Assembly (NCBI RefSeq): GCF_017348835.2
Contig: NZ_CP072315.1
Length of the DNA stretch: 64,000 bases
Source: Escherichia coli
GTDB taxonomy: Bacteria; Pseudomonadota; Gammaproteobacteria; Enterobacterales; Enterobacteriaceae
Direction: 5' to 3' (one strand)
How positions within the stretch are numbered: position 1 is the first letter of the stretch; each line of letters begins with the position of its first letter. This document shows, piece by piece, positions 29,020 to 61,413 of the stretch. The position numbers and the translations under genes were made by a program. A model generated the notes under the pieces. It was given only the letters and a program-made list of their open reading frames with translations, made no database searches and was not told where the DNA came from.

Positions 29020-30270
29020 TTAAGTCCGATACAGTTCGGCGAGCTCATCCAGCATGGGGTTACTCTTATATCCCGGTGCGGCCGTAAAAAGGTTTCGGGA
29101 AATCGCCAGCCACTCCATGATTTTGTCCGTCGCCAGCCAACGTCTGCCAAGTCGCTCGGCTGCGATGGGGACTTTATGCAAGCCAGCGAAGGGATCTACA
29201 ACAAGATCTCCCGGCTCTGTCAAAAACTCAATCAGAAACGCTGCAAGCCTGGTAGGAGACGTTGCACCGTGCAGCGGAAAACCGAGCTCGCGGGCAATGG
29301 AATGGCAAAATCTCGTATCAGCGCAGCTATTGCCGTAAAACAAAGTATTCTTGGGGATCGTTCCTTCTGTTTTATTTCCAAAGGAACCGCTTTTAAGCTG
29401 GTACGCCCCATCACCATAAAAGGTCGTGCGATTTTCACCGCCTGCTGCCTGCAATTTTAGATGCTGGTCTGAATGCGGTTGTAGTACACGTAAGTTGTTT
29501 GAACGAACCTTACTCGCATCATTGGTAAACCACAGCACAGGCTCATACGATGAGCAGAGCTGCACCCGTTGCTTACATGCCCAGTGCGTTGGCGATGGGG
29601 GCTTACTGCGATTCACCCACTGAAGCCTGTCCATGAGCTCAAGCCCCAGCTTGTCACATAATGCCAGTGTCAGACGCTCCAGATACAGAGAACGTGAAGG
29701 CCTACCCCTATTAAAGCTATCTTGAGTGATATTCAATGCCACACTTGCGCCCGGTACAAGCTGTTTCACGATCGGTTCGAGGATACGCAGAAGCCAGTCA
29801 ATATAAGCCTGCTCGCCACGCCCCCCTCCGTGCCCGTAGTCTCTTGAATTTCGAAGGAGGTAAGGTGGCGAGGTCAGGCAAAGATGAATTTGCTCGGTGA
29901 TATTGCTGAAGAAGGCATAGGCGTTTCCAAAAACCGATGCCCCAAGAGAAGTTGAGAAACCGACAACACAGAGCTTTTCCCATGACTCATGCAGGTTTGT
30001 TTTCGTCTTAGAGGCGTATCTCCAGACGCCCCGTTTTTCTGGAACGCGTTCGATGACCCCGGCCTGACGGAGAGTCTGCTGAAACCAGCGAACCTTATGT
30101 TTGACGCCGCTGGTTCTGGTTTTATCTGACCCAAATTCTTTCAGTTCGTGCAATTCGGCATCCGACATGCCAGTTTTACGCTGCACTTCGCGATAAAGCT
30201 CGTCGTTGGTCAACGGCGATTCGGAGGCAGCGTAGATATGCGCAATTAAGTCCGTATTAATCGTACTCAT
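29020..30270 (-). CDS. DNA methyltransferase (N4/N6 class, SPPY and DPFAG motifs)
   Basis: LTSPPYLLRN catalytic motif and C-terminal DLVVDPFAGLHKV SAM-binding motif. Confidence 0.8.
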   Translation of the reverse strand: MSTINTDLIAHIYAASESPLTNDELYREVQRKTGMSDAELHELKEFGSDKTRTSGVKHKVRWFQQTLRQAGVIERVPEKRGVWRYASKTKTNLHESWEKLCVVGFSTSLGASVFGNAYAFFSNITEQIHLCLTSPPYLLRNSRDYGHGGGRGEQAYIDWLLRILEPIVKQLVPGASVALNITQDSFNRGRPSRSLYLERLTLALCDKLGLELMDRLQWVNRSKPPSPTHWACKQRVQLCSSYEPVLWFTNDASKVRSNNLRVLQPHSDQHLKLQAAGGENRTTFYGDGAYQLKSGSFGNKTEGTIPKNTLFYGNSCADTRFCHSIARELGFPLHGATSPTRLAAFLIEFLTEPGDLVVDPFAGLHKVPIAAERLGRRWLATDKIMEWLAISRNLFTAAPGYKSNPMLDELAELYRT

Positions 30271-30438
30271 CAGCCATCCTAATGGGGATACAGTTATTAT
30301 ATCGGCCTGATGGTTGGAAGTGAGATTACTAAATCAGACCGATCTGGTTTGTTGAAGACTTTGCCAAATCATGCAGCACAGCTGGGCTTGCACAGAGCGA
30401 GCCGGGCTCCTTTAGCGGAGACACCTTCGCAAGTTGGA

Positions 30439-31059
30439 TTAATCAGCCTCAAGATTCTGGAACTCAATGAGCTTTTGCTCACACTCCTCCCTGCCCCACG
30501 ATCCCTGCCAGTCACAGATGTCCCGGTACTTACTTTCCAGCTTATCCATCTGTGCGAGATTAGCTGTTGCGAAGTCTGTCCATATGTCATGCCAGCAAGC
30601 GTTGTACGTAACGCCAGCTGGTGGACAATACTCCATTGCATCAGCATTAATAATTTCAACGCGAAGATCGGTTGCAAACGAGGCTGCAACGAGGTTAATA
30701 ACATCCTGTTCTTTTTCGATTACCGTGACATGGGTTACATCGTCTTTCTGAAGAATGGCGTGGAGCACCATACCAAGACCAAGACCATTAATGAGCACCC
30801 GCCCGGTGGCTCGCTCTATAAAATCCTGGCAGGTTCGGATCTCCATCGGGGTATTGGACATCACCACATCCCAGCCGTTGGACAAGCGGCGATATCTACC
30901 GGGCGGGATAAACTCATCTGTATTACCAGTACACTCGGCACGAAGGGCGAGGGTCAGCGCCTTATCTGTGGTAATTTCGAAAGTGTCCAGTTTCCAAGTT
31001 CCGGACTTGCCGTCTTTAACGGGTAAATCAGAAAAGCAGCTCTTCATCGAGGCAACCAA
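30439..31059 (-). CDS. putative SAM-dependent methyltransferase
   Basis: Gly-rich motif I candidate (VLINGLGLGMV) followed by an acidic residue block; preferred over the overlapping plus-strand ORF because of the motif and co-orientation. Confidence 0.45.
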   Translation of the reverse strand: MVASMKSCFSDLPVKDGKSGTWKLDTFEITTDKALTLALRAECTGNTDEFIPPGRYRRLSNGWDVVMSNTPMEIRTCQDFIERATGRVLINGLGLGMVLHAILQKDDVTHVTVIEKEQDVINLVAASFATDLRVEIINADAMEYCPPAGVTYNACWHDIWTDFATANLAQMDKLESKYRDICDWQGSWGREECEQKLIEFQNLEAD

Positions 31060-31202
31060 AATTCCAGTAGTTTTGTTACGCTGAACCTACCACAAACCCG
31101 CTCTTAATGAAGGCATCAGGAGCGATAGCGATCTTTGAGGCATCGTTTAAAACAGCGGCATCCTGTAACAGACACCCGATATTTTTTTTAATGCCGCAGG
31201 TG

Positions 31203-59426: not shown

Positions 59427-60143
59427 TTAACTGTCTTGGAGTTTATTTAACTTAAAAACTGTTATTGCAGCATAATTTTTCGAATCAAATTCATAGAATT
59501 TTCTGACTTTTCCAGTCAAATGATAACGTTCACCCAATAAAATGTGATCCTGTTTATCGGCCGTTAAAGCGATCCCGTCATTTCTAACTTTACCAGTAAA
59601 TGTAAAAAAATAACTCCCTTTACTTTTTGCGTACGCGGCCCTGACTTCAGTAAATGTTAGTTCAATGCTTATGACCTGGCCGATATTGTAGCTATGTTTT
59701 AAAATTTCTTGTTCATTTTCCGGAGTTTCAGACAACATCACATCAAAAGTTGTAAAGAAACAATCCAGCTGGCGTTCTGTCAAGAAACGGTTATTGTCTA
59801 ATTGCGCCAATATACTATTAGAAAACTTAGTGTTAGCCTTTTTTGCTTTCTCAATAAGGACGTGGTTTCTGGATTTCCATGCTTCGAGTGTTGGGTTAAC
59901 ACGCAGTTCCGGAATGTTATCGAGAAAGGTAATTGGCTCTAGTGCCACTAATTTTTCAATAATGGGTCCAACTGTTTGTACCCCATGACACTTTTCACAT
60001 AAATCAGCCCCTTTGTGGCCTGTGCCCGCACATTCGTTACATTCTCTTTCGATAGGTGCATAATAATTTCCATCTCCGTTAAGTGATACATTCACTGAGG
60101 CTGGTACCATATGACCATCAAGAGTAAAGAAAAGAGATTTCAT
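59427..60143 (-). CDS. zinc-ribbon protein with DnaJ-type CxxCxGxG motif
   Basis: CNECAGTG and CEKCHG motifs near the N-terminus, like 34369..34839. Confidence 0.5.
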   Translation of the reverse strand: MKSLFFTLDGHMVPASVNVSLNGDGNYYAPIERECNECAGTGHKGADLCEKCHGVQTVGPIIEKLVALEPITFLDNIPELRVNPTLEAWKSRNHVLIEKAKKANTKFSNSILAQLDNNRFLTERQLDCFFTTFDVMLSETPENEQEILKHSYNIGQVISIELTFTEVRAAYAKSKGSYFFTFTGKVRNDGIALTADKQDHILLGERYHLTGKVRKFYEFDSKNYAAITVFKLNKLQDS

Positions 60144-60340
60144 TTTCGAAACACCTCCAAACGTGCCTCTACGATTGCTACAGCTTCTTTCACAGTTTTT
60201 TCATAGTGGTCATGCCCTTCAGGAAATTGATCAAAACGTTTACCGTGTTCTAACTCTTCCATGTTGCGTTTAAGGACTTCATGAGTTAGAAGCAAATCAC
60301 TATAATTATCGATAAGAGTCAGCTTTATAGGTTTAATCAC
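60140..60340 (-). CDS. hypothetical small protein
   Basis: 66-aa ORF overlapping the downstream gene by 4 bp. Confidence 0.35.
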   Translation of the reverse strand: MIKPIKLTLIDNYSDLLLTHEVLKRNMEELEHGKRFDQFPEGHDHYEKTVKEAVAIVEARLEVFRK

Positions 60341-60357
60341 TCAACTAATCCTCGTTT

Positions 60358-61413
60358 TTAATATTCCTTAAGGAGATCTCGAATTTCCAGAAGCTCTTCT
60401 AATTTTGGTTTAGAAACAATGATTGCTGTATTTTCGTCGTTAAGTAAAGACAATAAAATATTTAGCTTTTCATCATTCAAGATTATTTGAACACCATCAT
60501 TGGAAAATATTACATTATTACTATTAACATTTTTGAACAAGTGTGCACTATCTCTACCAAATTTTAGTTCTGTTTGAGTATTCGTTATAGATTCCGTATG
60601 TGTACTTTCCACAAGCTCAAGAAATTCAGATTTTAGCCGTTCTGTTTTCTTATGCGAGAGGCGCTTAATACCCAAAGTCTTACGAGTGACTGCCGAATTT
60701 TTCTTTTCTGGTCCGCCTTTATTTAAGGTGTCTGGTCCTGCTCCAGCTGCATTGTGTTCAGGTATGCCTACAATTTTGCTCGTTGTAGTCTCAATATTCT
60801 TAACGCCAGGTAAGAAACCTTCTATATGTTTTAAAACCATTTTGTGATCGTTGGAATATTTTAACATTATTTCAATGGCGAGCGTTTTTTTGATTAGATT
60901 TAGGCTAATCAAACGTTGAAGCTCTAATGGCATATCAAGGATTTTTAGCATATTACGAATTGCGGTAGTTGATCGTTGATATCGCATTGCTAGTTCTTCA
61001 ACCGAATACCCGAGACTAACAGCATGAGCTAATGCATGAGCTTGCCCAACCGGATTTAGCCCATTGCTTCTGTTACCATCGAGGTTCTCAAGGTATTCTT
61101 CAATTTCGTTTTTATAATCGATTAGGATAACAGATAATTTTGGAATATTAGCACCTTCAGAAATTGCTAATTTTAAGCCATGAAAACGAGTATGACCTTG
61201 ACGAACTAAATATTTACCTTTTCTTTTTACGACCTTGATCATATCAACCTGCCTTCCTTCCTTAAAGGCTTGTTTGATTGACACAATCATCGACTTGACA
61301 GGTTCTTGTTCGTAACACAAATCTCCGATTACCGCCTCTCGGGGATTAAATCCCTTTTCAATTTCAACTAGATTAGTATCCACTTCAATGACTGTATGTT
61401 TGCTGTTGTTCAT
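60358..61413 (-). CDS. ParB/Srx-domain (ParB-like nuclease) protein
   Basis: GFNPREAV ... VVKRKGKYLVRQGHTRFHGLKLAI block; third ParB-like paralog. Confidence 0.7.
   Translation of the reverse strand: MNNSKHTVIEVDTNLVEIEKGFNPREAVIGDLCYEQEPVKSMIVSIKQAFKEGRQVDMIKVVKRKGKYLVRQGHTRFHGLKLAISEGANIPKLSVILIDYKNEIEEYLENLDGNRSNGLNPVGQAHALAHAVSLGYSVEELAMRYQRSTTAIRNMLKILDMPLELQRLISLNLIKKTLAIEIMLKYSNDHKMVLKHIEGFLPGVKNIETTTSKIVGIPEHNAAGAGPDTLNKGGPEKKNSAVTRKTLGIKRLSHKKTERLKSEFLELVESTHTESITNTQTELKFGRDSAHLFKNVNSNNVIFSNDGVQIILNDEKLNILLSLLNDENTAIIVSKPKLEELLEIRDLLKEY

What the first reader, a model, noticed from the sequence alone, without database searches (positions are those of the whole stretch)
29020..61413. 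Five DNA methyltransferase candidates and three ParB-like proteins in one window
Methyltransferase candidates sit at 29020..30270 (SPPY/DPFAG), 30439..31059 (putative), 39070..39831 (NPPF), 54045..55736 (NPPF) and 57496..58329 (Dam-like), with no adjacent restriction endonuclease that I can recognise. Three stand-alone ParB/Srx-domain proteins sit at 7210..8394, 55984..57147 and 60358..61413 with no ParA partner; one is immediately upstream of a methyltransferase. This density of orphan methylases with ParB-like nucleases suggests an epigenetic or anti-restriction role during plasmid establishment, as described for leading regions of conjugative plasmids, rather than classical partitioning.
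Basis: partly seen in the sequence, partly recalled or inferred. Interest (0 to 1): 0.7.

Follow-up and report, generated by a model that had tools for sequence, protein, structure and literature searches.

The report
Orphan methylases and ParB-like proteins, IncHI2
This stretch of a well-known IncHI2 resistance plasmid carries four real DNA methylases without restriction partners and three ParB-like DNA-binding proteins without ParA partners, which probably help the plasmid protect and regulate itself rather than segregate, but none of this has been tested and the 'first DNA to enter the recipient' idea is not supported by their position.

Summary
The window is the backbone of an IncHI2 (R478-type) plasmid between transfer regions Tra1 and Tra2. 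It is 100% identical to Salmonella plasmid NZ_CP090540.1 except for one IS insertion.

Four of the five methyltransferase calls hold:
- M1 is M.PvuII-like (SPPY…DPFAG).
- M3 and M4 are TaqI-like NPPF enzymes; M4 also carries DUF4942.
- M5 is Dam-family.
- The fifth, M2 (30439-31047), is only a generic SAM-fold protein.

No restriction enzyme is annotated anywhere on the replicon.

The three ParB-like proteins are old paralogues (26-32% identity) with a confidently modelled ParB N-domain plus HTH fold. The window has no ParA or ParM; the plasmid's real par loci lie in Tra2. There is no evidence that they are nucleases.

M4, M5 and all three ParB-likes are conserved in IncHI1 R27; M1-M3 are not. 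Published R27 arrays show the orthologue of the ParB-like at 55984-57147 is very highly expressed and induced with conjugation, unlike parAB.

The 'leading region' analogy fails the usual positional rule, because the window lies on the relaxase side of oriT. The transfer direction is unknown.

In passing: the palindrome AAAGTWACTTT occurs 14 times (0.07 expected), mostly in promoter regions, including upstream of two ParB-like genes. It suggests a KorB-like regulon.

Verdict: a new member of a known kind, of moderate interest.

The parts
29020..30270 (-). M1: orphan beta-class amino-methyltransferase, M.PvuII-like (probably N4-cytosine), with an N-terminal Mrr_N winged-helix domain
   Evidence: Pfam N6_N4_Mtase E 7.9e-21 and Mrr_N E 5.9e-6. 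M.PvuII 1boo E 2.3e-39. SPPY aa 134-137, DPFAG aa 359-363. A 50%-identical homologue is present in IncC plasmids. Absent from R27.
30439..31047 (-). M2: small SAM-fold (spermidine-synthase-like) protein of unknown substrate; not a demonstrable DNA methylase
   Evidence: phrog_15480 'methyltransferase' E 3.5e-34. Only weak NCBIfam and Pfam hits. No amino-methylase motif IV. No PDB relative. Relatives are named hypothetical or spermidine synthase.
39070..39831 (+). M3: small orphan gamma-class N6-adenine methyltransferase (NPPF), with no large target-recognition domain
   Evidence: M.TaqI catalytic domain E 1.2e-6. Several PHROG DNA-methyltransferase families, down to E 6e-45. Motif I EPEFGDG aa 106-112, NPPF aa 172-175. 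27% identical to the M4 C-terminus. Absent from R27.
54045..55736 (-). M4: orphan DUF4942 + gamma-class NPPF adenine methyltransferase
   Evidence: Pfam DUF4942 E 3.8e-21 and MTS. phrog_6263 E 1.4e-111. NPPF aa 486-489. 70% identical orthologue in R27 (R0043). About 31% identical orphan homologues in SSU5-type phage-plasmids and in Pseudomonas and Aeromonas phages.
57517..58329 (+). M5: orphan Dam-family (alpha-class) adenine methyltransferase, divergent from the ParB-like gene B2
   Evidence: TIGR00571 222 bits, cutoff 114.85. Pfam MethyltransfD12 E 5.2e-46. EcoDam E 2.4e-38. DPPY aa 181-184. 70% identical orthologue in R27 (R0041).
7210..8394 (-). B1: orphan ParB-fold + HTH protein, with two palindromes in its upstream region
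   Evidence: phrog_1033 E 1.6e-21, HTH_ParB E 7e-5. 65% identical orthologue in R27. Palindromes 96 and 222 bp upstream; the same arrangement occurs in R27.
55984..57147 (-). B2: orphan ParB-fold + HTH protein, monocistronic; its R27 orthologue is R0042
   Evidence: phrog_1033 E 3.3e-28. AF2 pLDDT 88.7; Foldseek top matches are ParB-CTP, Noc and KorB. R0042 is highly expressed and induced with conjugation. 75% identical orthologue in R27.
60358..61413 (-). B3: orphan ParB-fold + HTH protein next to the RepB-family initiator (61890-62765)
   Evidence: phrog_1033 E 1.9e-25, HTH_ParB E 8e-5. 58% identical orthologue in R27 (R0037), in the same position beside repHI1A.
55877..55894 (-). Intrinsic terminator between B2 and M4
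   Evidence: GCCCCG-TTTATG-CGGGGC followed by T9. Consistent with the 28-fold expression difference between R0042 and R0043 in R27.
8485..8621 (.). Two copies of the palindrome AAAAGTWACTTTT upstream of B1, representative of 14 exact copies in the window
   Evidence: 14 copies against 0.07 expected. 12 of 14 are intergenic, P about 1e-5. 41 copies in the IncHI2 plasmid, 42 in R27, none in the resistance region.
57228..57238 (.). Variant palindrome AAAGGTACTTT, 86 bp upstream of B2 and shared with the divergent M5 promoter region
   Evidence: The same variant lies about 90 bp upstream of the R27 orthologue.
32596..32606 (.). Palindrome at the head of the co-oriented gene run 32425 to 28593 that contains M2 and M1
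   Evidence: That these genes form one operon is inferred only from orientation and spacing.

Best explanation
The window is the conserved IncHI2 backbone between Tra1 (oriT, relaxase) and Tra2.

It encodes four orphan DNA methyltransferases of three architectural classes: one PvuII-like, probably m4C; two TaqI-like m6A; and one Dam-type. The most likely role of these enzymes is to methylate the plasmid at several motifs. The incoming strand, and the hemimethylated duplex made from it, would then be a poor substrate for restriction systems in new hosts. This is the known use of orphan methylases by phages and conjugative plasmids.

The three ParB-like proteins are diverged paralogues with a ParB N-domain (GFNxR and RQGxxR pocket) and an HTH. 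They most likely act as nucleotide-switched, sequence-specific DNA-binding regulators or clamps in the manner of KorB, Noc or HerB, not as segregation proteins.

Shown here: domain and motif identity, orphan status, paralogy, conservation across IncHI1 and IncHI2, and the ParB fold.
Shown in the literature: expression of the R27 orthologues.
Inferred: restriction evasion, nucleotide binding, the DNA targets, and any functional coupling between the methylases and the ParB-like proteins.
For: Identity of the replicon.

Methylase classification.

Orphan status:
- No restriction enzyme beside the methylases or annotated on the whole plasmid.
- The plasmid carries further methylases elsewhere: a Dcm-type gene and a second DUF4942 protein.
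- The same habit is seen in IncC plasmids, which carry an M1 homologue, an N-6 methylase, a Dcm and an orphan ParB-like protein, and in phages carrying M4 homologues.

ParB-like proteins:
- Paralogy.
- Invariant pocket motifs across paralogues and 85 relatives.
- AF2 model and Foldseek matches to CTP-bound ParB, Noc and KorB.
- No ParA or ParM in the window.
- True parAB and parMR lie in Tra2.
- R0042 is highly expressed and co-induced with transfer genes, while parAB is constitutive.

Literature precedent: orphan methylases and ParB homologues as establishment or anti-defence functions (PMC11541004; PMC7736820; PMC13370423).
Against: - No methylome or restriction-evasion data exist for these genes.
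- In R27 the M4 and M5 orthologues are weakly expressed in vegetative donors (signals 80-394).
- M5 duplicates the host Dam specificity in enterobacteria, so it gives no obvious protection there.
- M1-M3 are missing from R27, so they are not essential to the IncHI lifestyle.
- Methylase adjacency is not a general feature of the ParB-like family: 1 of 6 sampled contexts.
- B2 and M4 are separated by a terminator.
- CTP binding is inferred from fold and motifs only. Box II is RQGHCR rather than GERRxR.
Confidence: 0.55

Rival explanations
1. Leading-region anti-defence island. The window is the first DNA to enter the recipient, and its genes are expressed early from the transferred single strand to defeat restriction during establishment.
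For: - All genes from about 2.5 to 38 kb are on the minus strand and point toward oriT. That is the orientation of the F leading-region genes, and it is conserved in R27.
- A hok toxin and, in R27, a DUF905 gene occur here as they do in the F leading region.
- Most R27 backbone genes belong to the transfer-linked HtdA regulon.
Against: - The window lies on the relaxase side of oriT, beyond mobI, mobH, traD and traJ. The rule used in the field treats that side as lagging.
- By tblastn with F proteins, no KlcA-type antirestriction, SSB, PsiB or HerB relative was found; ArdA was not tested.
- No strong single-strand hairpin in two large intergenic regions (z -2.5 and -1.25).
- M3 (+ strand), M4, M5 and B2/B3 lie 38-61 kb from the window start, far from oriT.
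- Surveys found no anti-defence peak in MOB-H plasmids (10.1101/2025.04.03.647016).
Confidence: 0.15
2. KorB-like global regulon. One or more of the ParB-like proteins bind the 13-bp palindrome AAAAGTWACTTTT, which is scattered through IncHI backbones. They repress or insulate many operons, including their own genes, the M2-M1 operon, the DndC-like operon, the Ig-like genes and the oriT region.
For: - 14 exact copies in the window against 0.07 expected. 12 of 14 are intergenic, and 10 lie 96-222 bp upstream of a start codon.
- 41 and 42 copies in the IncHI2 and R27 backbones, and none in the resistance region. Two copies sit in the oriT intergenic region of both plasmids.
- It is the only strongly over-represented palindrome.
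- Copies lie directly upstream of B1 in IncHI2 and R27, and of the B1- or B2-like genes in three distant plasmids. A conserved variant lies about 90 bp upstream of B2 in both IncHI2 and R27.
- The 6-1-6 architecture and the density (about one per 5 kb) recall the KorB OB sites of RK2 (own knowledge).
- B2 resembles KorB structurally (TMt 0.62), and its orthologue is very highly expressed.
Against: - No binding data.
- The recognition helices differ between and within the paralogue groups, although the palindrome is conserved.
- R27 has other backbone-wide regulators (TrhR/TrhY, HtdA, H-NS/Hha) that could own the site.
- B3, M3 and M4 have no site upstream.
Confidence: 0.25
3. Replicon housekeeping. 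The Dam-type methylase and the ParB-like proteins beside the two replication initiators serve replication control or replicon-specific segregation, for example by methylating GATC at the origins or by acting as an extra centromere-binding protein that uses the Tra2 ParA.
For: - The block of initiator, B3, zinc-finger protein, Dam, B2 and M4 is syntenic beside repHI1A in R27 and beside the RepB-family initiator in IncHI2.
- A relative of the family sits directly upstream of a ParA plus KorB-type ParB pair in an IncC-like element.
- An array of 81-bp repeats with iteron-like inverted repeats lies near repHI2.
Against: - B1 lies 40 kb from either replicon.
- R0042 expression follows conjugation conditions, not the constitutive pattern of parAB.
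- There is no ParA partner in the window.
- The iteron-like repeats match the RepHI2 iterons rather than an independent centromere.
Confidence: 0.1

Closest known systems
Orphan methyltransferases of conjugative-plasmid leading regions (e.g. M.EcoGIX of IncI1 pESBL; the F 'DNA methylase' at 54166-54849)
   Same: They are plasmid-borne, lack a cognate endonuclease, occur several per element alongside ParB homologues, and are presumed to protect entering DNA from restriction (PMC7736820, PMC11541004).
   Different: Sequence relationship is negligible: the F methylase matches only a 54-residue stretch of M1. The IncHI2 genes lie on the relaxase side of oriT and up to 60 kb from it. Single-strand specificity and early expression are unknown.
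HerB (YfjB) of plasmid F, a leading-region ParB-like CTP-binding host reprogrammer (PMC13370423)
   Same: Both are orphan ParB N-domain plus HTH proteins on a conjugative plasmid, are not part of the partition system, and have expression tied to conjugation.
   Different: HerB is 652 aa with extra domains D3 and D4 that form the dimer core. B1-B3 are 351-394 aa, lack those domains, and show no BLAST-level similarity. Nothing is known about chromosomal binding.
KorB of IncP RK2 (a ParB-family CTP-dependent clamp and global repressor that binds 13-bp OB palindromes)
   Same: The fold matches (Foldseek E 3.4e-6, TMt 0.62). A 13-bp 6-1-6 palindrome is scattered over the backbone at promoter regions.
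   Different: KorB also works as the ParB of an IncC(ParA)/KorB partition pair and cooperates with KorA, and neither partner is evident here. Binding of B1-B3 to the palindrome is untested. Box II is RQGxxR, not GERRxR.
IncC (IncA/C2) plasmid backbone
   Same: It is another MOB-H, MPF-F plasmid. It carries an orphan ParB-like protein (30-34% identical to B1-B3) two genes upstream of an M1 homologue (50% identical), plus further orphan methylases.
   Different: IncC has one orphan ParB-like gene, not three. It lies just upstream of the true parA and KorB-type parB. The IncHI palindrome is absent; a different 18-bp palindrome is present.
Type II restriction-modification systems (PvuII, TaqI, DpnII)
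   Same: The catalytic domains of M1, M3/M4 and M5 are homologous to M.PvuII, M.TaqI and DpnM/Dam.
   Different: No endonuclease gene lies beside any of them or is annotated elsewhere on the plasmid.

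Membership tests
Beta-class N4/N6 amino-methyltransferase (PF01555, M.PvuII-like) - M1 | Catalytic motif IV (S/D)PP(Y/F) lies before the SAM-binding motif I (DPFxG), with a significant match to the family profile | tested here: met
   SPPY at aa 134-137 and DPFAG at aa 359-363. PF01555 E 7.9e-21. M.PvuII E 2.3e-39 over 288 residues.
Beta-class N4/N6 amino-methyltransferase - M1 | Methylated base (m4C or m6A) and recognition sequence | not testable with these tools
   Requires a methylome or an enzyme assay. 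SPPY and the PvuII similarity suggest m4C (inference).
Dam family (alpha-class, D12) - M5 | Score above the curated family cutoff; motif I before DPPY | tested here: met
   TIGR00571 222 bits against 114.85. EPFIGGG at aa 31-37 and DPPY at aa 181-184.
Gamma-class N6-adenine methyltransferase (TaqI-like) - M3 and M4 | Motif I (xEPxxGxG) followed by NPP(Y/F), with homology to a characterised gamma enzyme | tested here: met
   M3 matches M.TaqI at E 1.2e-6 across motifs I-IV. M4 shares this domain with M3 (27% identity). Pfam hits to N6_Mtase and MTS are weak.
DNA methyltransferase (any class) - M2 | An amino-methylase motif IV or the C5-methylase PC/ENV motifs, or homology to a characterised DNA methylase | tested here: not met
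   There is no (D/N/S)PP(Y/F/W) motif. The C5-methylase PC/ENV motifs were judged absent by eye only, not by a search. No significant Pfam DNA-methylase hit and no PDB relative. Relatives are named hypothetical or spermidine synthase. Only a generic PHROG 'methyltransferase' label applies.
Type II restriction-modification system | A cognate restriction endonuclease gene adjacent to the methylase | tested here: not met
   Neighbours have no hits to restriction endonucleases (the nine with PADLOC). No restriction enzyme is annotated on the whole plasmid (150001-154999 not fetched). Caveats: PD-(D/E)XK enzymes can escape sequence searches, and the PLSDB gene table is incomplete.
ParABS type I partition system - B1, B2, B3 | A ParA ATPase gene paired with the ParB gene | tested here: not met
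   No ParA-, SopA- or ParM-like sequence occurs in any frame of the window. The real parA/parB and parM are in Tra2.
ParABS type I partition system - B1, B2, B3 | Score above the curated ParB/RepB/Spo0J cutoff | tested here: not met
   TIGR00180 scores of 29.5-33.9 bits against a cutoff of 58.45.
ParB/Srx superfamily with HTH (fold level) - B1, B2, B3 | ParB N-terminal domain with the arginine-rich pocket motifs, plus the ParB-type HTH domain | tested here: met
   HTH_ParB hits for all three. GFNxR and RQGxxR are invariant. The AF2 model has pLDDT 88.7, with top matches to ParB-CTP, Noc, KorB and Spo0J.
CTP-dependent ParB clamps | CTP binding and hydrolysis, and N-domain gate closure | not testable with these tools
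   Only fold and motif similarity is available. Box II is RQGHCR / RQGACR / RQGHTR instead of GERRxR.
HerB family (PMC13370423) | All four domains D1-D4 covered at 80% or more (the authors' criterion) | tested here: not met
   B1-B3 are 351-394 aa against 652 aa for HerB. tblastn of HerB against the window gives no hit below E 0.5.
Leading-region anti-defence island (PMC11541004) | Position next to oriT on the side opposite the relaxase | tested here: not met
   The order is oriT, mobI, mobH relaxase, traD, traJ, then the window. The rule is quoted. The true direction of IncHI transfer is unknown.
Leading-region anti-defence island | Genes oriented for transcription from the transferred strand (pointing toward oriT) | tested here: inconclusive
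   Genes at 2.5-38 kb point toward oriT. This counts only if transfer runs through the relaxase operon first. M3 and M5 are on the other strand.
Leading-region anti-defence island | Presence of known anti-defence or establishment genes (ardA, klcA, psiB, ssb) and Frpo-type single-strand promoters | tested here: not met
   No relatives of F KlcA, SSB or PsiB; ardA was not tested. Two large intergenic regions fold no better than z -2.5 and -1.25 and form no long hairpin. This was a limited test.
KorB-type global regulator | Sequence-specific binding to palindromic operators dispersed over the plasmid | not testable with these tools
   A candidate operator exists. The binding protein is unknown.

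The most novel reading that the evidence does not exclude
The three orphan ParB-fold proteins (or one lineage of them, most likely B1 or B2) are KorB-like, nucleotide-switched global regulators of IncHI plasmids. Their operator would be the 13-bp palindrome AAAAGTWACTTTT. About 40 copies mark promoter regions across the whole backbone, including oriT, their own genes, the M2-M1 methylase operon and the DndC-like operon. That would tie DNA-modification and transfer genes into one plasmid-wide circuit together with HtdA and TrhR/TrhY. The site is conserved in IncHI-like plasmids whose ParB-like proteins have diverged to 25-35% identity.
Probability: 0.25. Interest if true: 0.65.

Novelty: new member of a known kind. 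Interest (0 to 1): 0.4.

Why it matters
IncHI2 plasmids are major carriers of mcr, ESBL, oqxAB and heavy-metal resistance genes in Salmonella and E. coli.

Surveys of plasmid anti-defence genes found no recognisable anti-defence peak in MOB-H plasmids. They dropped the IncHI2 group for lack of a known oriT, and how such plasmids cope with recipient defences is an open question (10.1101/2025.04.03.647016).

The four orphan methylases, the DndC-like protein and the three ParB-fold proteins are concrete, conserved candidates for that missing function, and they can be tested with simple deletions and methylomes.

The backbone-wide palindrome, if it is the operator of one of the ParB-like proteins, would extend the KorB type of plasmid-wide control to a clinically dominant plasmid family. 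It would also offer a single target for shutting down many backbone operons.

Tried and rejected
1. Homology with F leading-region proteins. tblastn of the F methylase, HerB, SopB, KlcA, SSB, PsiB, DUF932, DUF1380 and DUF905 proteins against the window gave only a 54-residue motif-I match of the F methylase to M1. 'Same genes as the F leading region' was rejected.

2. Restriction enzymes among the neighbours. PADLOC and PHROGs on NERD, HNH, DUF6012 and six unannotated neighbours found only generic HNH and NERD hits, far from the methylases. A cryptic restriction enzyme of unrecognisable sequence cannot be excluded.

3. An IbrA/IbrB-type pairing of the DndC-like protein with a ParB-like neighbour. 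Pfam found only PAPS_reduct, and nothing in the 263-aa upstream protein. Not supported.

4. ParB-like plus methylase as a fixed two-gene module. SSU5 and phiPSA1 carry M4 homologues without ParB-like neighbours. Only 1 of 6 contexts of ParB-like relatives had an adjacent methylase. B2 and M4 are separated by a terminator. Rejected as a general rule.

5. Direction of transfer from the literature. The IncA/C oriT paper reports failure to map nic. The GGI TraI paper and the SXT/IncA/C review gave no usable statement. The R27 sequence paper is not held. Unresolved.

6. Assigning the palindrome to a paralogue by conservation of the recognition helix. The helices vary within every group. Inconclusive.

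7. Literature search for the palindrome sequence found nothing relevant. One literature search on ParB/Srx and Osa was wasted on unrelated hits.

8. An Rfam scan of the window returned no family at gathering threshold.

9. Sigma-70 scans near the palindromes were uninformative.

Full report
**What the window is**

Megablast places the window in hundreds of IncHI2 (R478-type) plasmids of Salmonella, E. coli and relatives; 738-894 records cover at least 80% of the two 20-kb query segments. It is 100% identical to Salmonella plasmid NZ_CP090540.1 except for a 1337-bp IS186-like insertion at 12206-13542, flanked by a 13-bp duplication.

Annotation of that plasmid and of NZ_CP030940.1 gives the layout:
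- Left of the window: the Tra1 genes trhG, trhH, trhY and trhR on one strand.
- Then the 760-bp trhR|mobI intergenic region, which holds oriT in the related MOB-H plasmids.
- Then mobI, a small gene, the MobH relaxase, the coupling protein, a hypothetical gene, DUF4400 (traJ), an S49 peptidase and a NERD protein on the other strand.
- The window starts inside this last operon, so oriT lies about 8-9 kb to its left. The window ends just before trhA of Tra2.
- Between these points lie two replication initiators (repHI2 at 47391-48479 and a RepB-family gene at 61890-62765), three paralogous Ig-like proteins, toxin genes and many small unannotated genes.

**The methyltransferases**

Four of the five calls hold.
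- **M1 (29020-30270, minus).** It has an N-terminal Mrr_N winged helix and a PF01555 domain (E 7.9e-21). It aligns over 288 residues with the N4-cytosine methylase M.PvuII (E 2.3e-39). SPPY precedes DPFAG, which is the beta-class order.
- **M3 (39070-39831, plus).** This is a 253-aa protein whose catalytic core matches M.TaqI from motif I to NPPF (E 1.2e-6). It has no room for a TaqI-sized target-recognition domain.
- **M4 (54045-55736, minus).** It joins a DUF4942 domain (E 3.8e-21) to a C-terminal domain 27% identical to M3. It matches the 548-position PHROG DNA-methyltransferase family 6263 end to end (E 1.4e-111).
- **M5 (57517-58329, plus).** It passes the curated Dam cutoff (222 against 114.85 bits) and matches E. 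coli Dam (E 2.4e-38).
- **M2 (30439-31047, minus).** This one is different. It has a GLGLG Rossmann motif but no amino-methylase motif IV, no significant Pfam hit and no relative in the PDB. Its roughly 200-aa relatives are labelled hypothetical or spermidine synthase. It is a SAM-fold protein of unknown substrate, not a demonstrable DNA methylase.

**Orphan status**

- PADLOC and PHROGs searches of the neighbours found no restriction endonuclease.
- No restriction enzyme is annotated in the fetched annotation of the 242-kb plasmid (only 150001-154999 was not fetched). The gene table is incomplete, and divergent nucleases can escape sequence searches.
- The plasmid carries still more methylase-type genes outside the window: a Dcm-type enzyme and a second DUF4942 protein.
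- M4 homologues (about 31% identity) occur as orphan methylases in SSU5-type phage-plasmids and in Pseudomonas and Aeromonas phages, often beside other methylases.
- IncC plasmids, also MOB-H, carry a 50%-identical M1 homologue, an N-6 methylase and a Dcm.

**The ParB-like proteins**

B1 (7210-8394), B2 (55984-57147) and B3 (60358-61413) are paralogues, 26-32% identical over their first 180-220 residues.
- All three hit PHROG 1033 and Pfam HTH_ParB, but fall below the curated ParB/RepB/Spo0J cutoff.
- An alignment with their R27 orthologues and an IncC relative shows invariant GFNxR and RQGxxR motifs. R73, G121 and R124 (B2 numbering) stay invariant across 85 diverse relatives.
- A profile search finds 195 cluster representatives at E ≤ 1e-30, mostly 300-420 aa. 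This is therefore a distinct subfamily.
- The AlphaFold model of B2 is confident (pLDDT 88.7). Its best structural matches are CTP/CDP-bound ParB of Myxococcus, Caulobacter and Bacillus, then Noc, KorB of RK2 (TM 0.62 on the target) and Spo0J.
- Nothing points to nuclease activity.
- No ParA-, SopA- or ParM-like sequence exists in any frame of the window. The plasmid's ParA/ParB and ParM loci lie in Tra2.

**Conservation**

R27 (IncHI1) has the same arrangement in mirror image. The order is Tra2, repHI1A, the B3 orthologue (58% identity), a small gene, a zinc-finger protein, a hypothetical gene, Dam (70%), the B2 orthologue (75%), the M4 orthologue (70%) and an Ig-like gene. Further on come the DndC-like protein (75%) and the B1 orthologue (65%). 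M1, M2 and M3 have no counterpart anywhere in R27. So the three ParB-like genes, Dam and the DUF4942 methylase are old IncHI backbone. The other methylases are IncHI2 additions.

**Expression evidence from the literature**

The source is the microarray study of R27 (PMC7366339). The gene numbering fixes R0036 as repHIA, R0041 as the adenine methylase, R0042 as the 'partition protein' (the B2 orthologue) and R0043 as the 'DNA restriction methylase' (the M4 orthologue).
- R0042 is among the most strongly expressed genes: 6132 units at 25 °C, 2278 at 37 °C and 20561 in an htdA mutant.
- The authors single R0042 out as induced under all conditions that promote conjugation.
- parA and parB (R0020, R0019) are constitutive and HtdA-independent.
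- R0043 and R0041 are weakly expressed (80-394 units).

This argues that B2 is not a housekeeping partition protein. It also argues that B2 and M4 are not co-expressed, which fits the strong intrinsic terminator found between them at 55894-55877.

**Is this a leading region?**

Against:
- In F, the leading-region genes (methylase, antirestriction, ssb, the ParB-like HerB, psiB, hok) lie on the side of oriT away from the relaxase and point toward oriT.
- In IncHI2 the window lies on the relaxase side. The rule used in large surveys makes that the lagging region.
- No relative of the F leading-region proteins is present, apart from the 54-residue methylase match to M1.
- Two large intergenic regions do not form Frpo-like hairpins.

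For:
- Every gene from 2.5 to 38 kb points toward oriT, in both IncHI2 and R27. That would fit early transcription only if the relaxase operon enters first.

Unresolved:
- I could not find the nick site or the transfer direction for IncHI plasmids. For the related IncA/C plasmids, attempts to map nic failed.
- A recent survey saw no anti-defence peak in MOB-H plasmids and excluded the IncHI2 group for lack of a known oriT.

The leading-region analogy is therefore not supported by position and remains untested.

**An unexpected feature: a backbone-wide palindrome**

The 11-bp palindrome AAAGTWACTTT, usually AAAAGTWACTTTT, occurs 14 times in the window against 0.07 expected.
- Twelve of the 14 copies are intergenic, although only 28% of the window is (P about 1e-5). 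Ten lie 96-222 bp upstream of a start codon.
- The complete IncHI2 plasmid has 41 copies and R27 has 42. None is in the resistance region. In both plasmids two copies 485 bp apart lie in the oriT intergenic region.
- It is the only strongly over-represented palindrome in either plasmid.
- In the window, copies head these units: the run of genes that contains M2 and M1 (32596), the run leading to the DndC-like gene (28384), the Ig-like gene at 49587-52043 (two copies) and B1 (two copies, as in R27).
- B2 has a conserved variant, AAAGGTACTTT, about 90 bp upstream in both plasmids.
- The same palindrome is enriched in distant IncHI-like plasmids. pKpNDM1 has 17 copies in 41 kb, six of them within 870 bp upstream of its B1 homologue. 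One contig has 11 copies in 13 kb, two of them upstream of a B2-like gene. Another has 3 copies.
- No paper in the library mentions the sequence.

Its 6-1-6 form, density and promoter-proximal position recall the KorB operators of RK2 (own knowledge). The ParB-like proteins are therefore candidate binders. Two points weigh against assigning it to them. The recognition helices are not conserved. R27 also has other backbone-wide regulators (TrhR/TrhY, HtdA) that derepress 139 of 181 expressed genes.

**Conclusion**

- The replicon is well known and heavily sequenced. The genes are annotated but uncharacterised.
- The general idea, that orphan methylases and ParB homologues serve as plasmid establishment or anti-restriction functions, is already in the literature for IncF and IncI plasmids.
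- The most likely function is self-protection by methylation, plus KorB-, Noc- or HerB-style DNA binding by the ParB-like proteins.
- The specific leading-region claim is not supported.
- The backbone-wide palindrome is the most novel lead and deserves a direct binding test.

Noticed in passing
window 3436, 8485, 8611, 18398, 20605, 23336, 28384, 32596, 41585, 43809, 52200, 52265, 59092, 62876 (exact); 57228, 63661 (one mismatch): The palindrome AAAGTWACTTT (often AAAAGTWACTTTT, sometimes followed by yCyGG) occurs 14 times against 0.07 expected. Copies are mostly 96-222 bp upstream of start codons. There are 41-42 copies per IncHI backbone, including two in the oriT region, and it is also enriched in distant IncHI-like plasmids. 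No mention was found in the literature library.
   Followed up: partly
window 46079-47166; also 43958-44015, 48674-48802, 49140-49226: An array of 9-11 tandem 81-bp repeats lies downstream of repHI2. Each repeat contains a 40-bp inverted repeat whose arms (TGACAACGGTAGTGA) match the 21-bp RepHI2 iterons upstream of repHI2. It looks like a copy-control or handcuffing array, or a sopC-like centromere. The ORF 46419-47027 in the mechanical list is an artefact of these repeats.
   Followed up: no
window 35274-37664(-), 41285-43705(+), 49587-52043(-): Three paralogous Ig-like (Big-domain) proteins of about 800 aa (28-41% identical) flank repHI2 and the M3 operon. They have counterparts in R27 and are distinct from the larger RSP protein of Tra2.
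   Followed up: partly
window 23453-25837(-): A 794-aa orphan DndC-like PAPS-reductase protein (DndC models E 4e-38) has a 430-aa C-terminal extension without Pfam hits. No other dnd genes are nearby. It is 75% identical in R27 and could be another DNA-modification function.
   Followed up: partly
window 12206-13542: A 1337-bp insertion with a 13-bp duplication, relative to the otherwise identical plasmid NZ_CP090540.1. It carries a 372-aa ORF (12376-13494, minus) and is probably an IS186-type element. It lies next to the hok toxin gene (13567-13686) and IS150 (13824-15193).
   Followed up: partly
window 55877-55894(-): A strong intrinsic terminator (7-bp GC-rich stem, T9 tail) lies between the ParB-like gene B2 and the methylase M4. 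The adjacent genes are therefore probably separate transcription units.
   Followed up: yes
L015 (IncC plasmid NZ_CP086666.1) 1649, 4985, 16029, 19444: IncC carries a different 18-bp palindrome, ACTTTCACATGTGAAAGT, four times in 24.5 kb. One copy lies 62 bp upstream of parA. It probably belongs to the KorB-type ParB of that plasmid.
   Followed up: no
window 1551-2282(+), 21811-22344(-), 34023-34319(-): Stand-alone NERD-domain protein, HNH endonuclease (phrog_2118 E 2e-55) and RelE/ParE toxin genes. None is adjacent to a methylase.
   Followed up: partly
NZ_CP090540.1 90084-92104 and 93954-95381 (outside the window): The same plasmid carries a second DUF4942 protein followed by a 401-aa hypothetical protein, and a Dcm-type cytosine methylase next to a thermonuclease-family gene. 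The replicon therefore holds at least six methylase-type genes.
   Followed up: no
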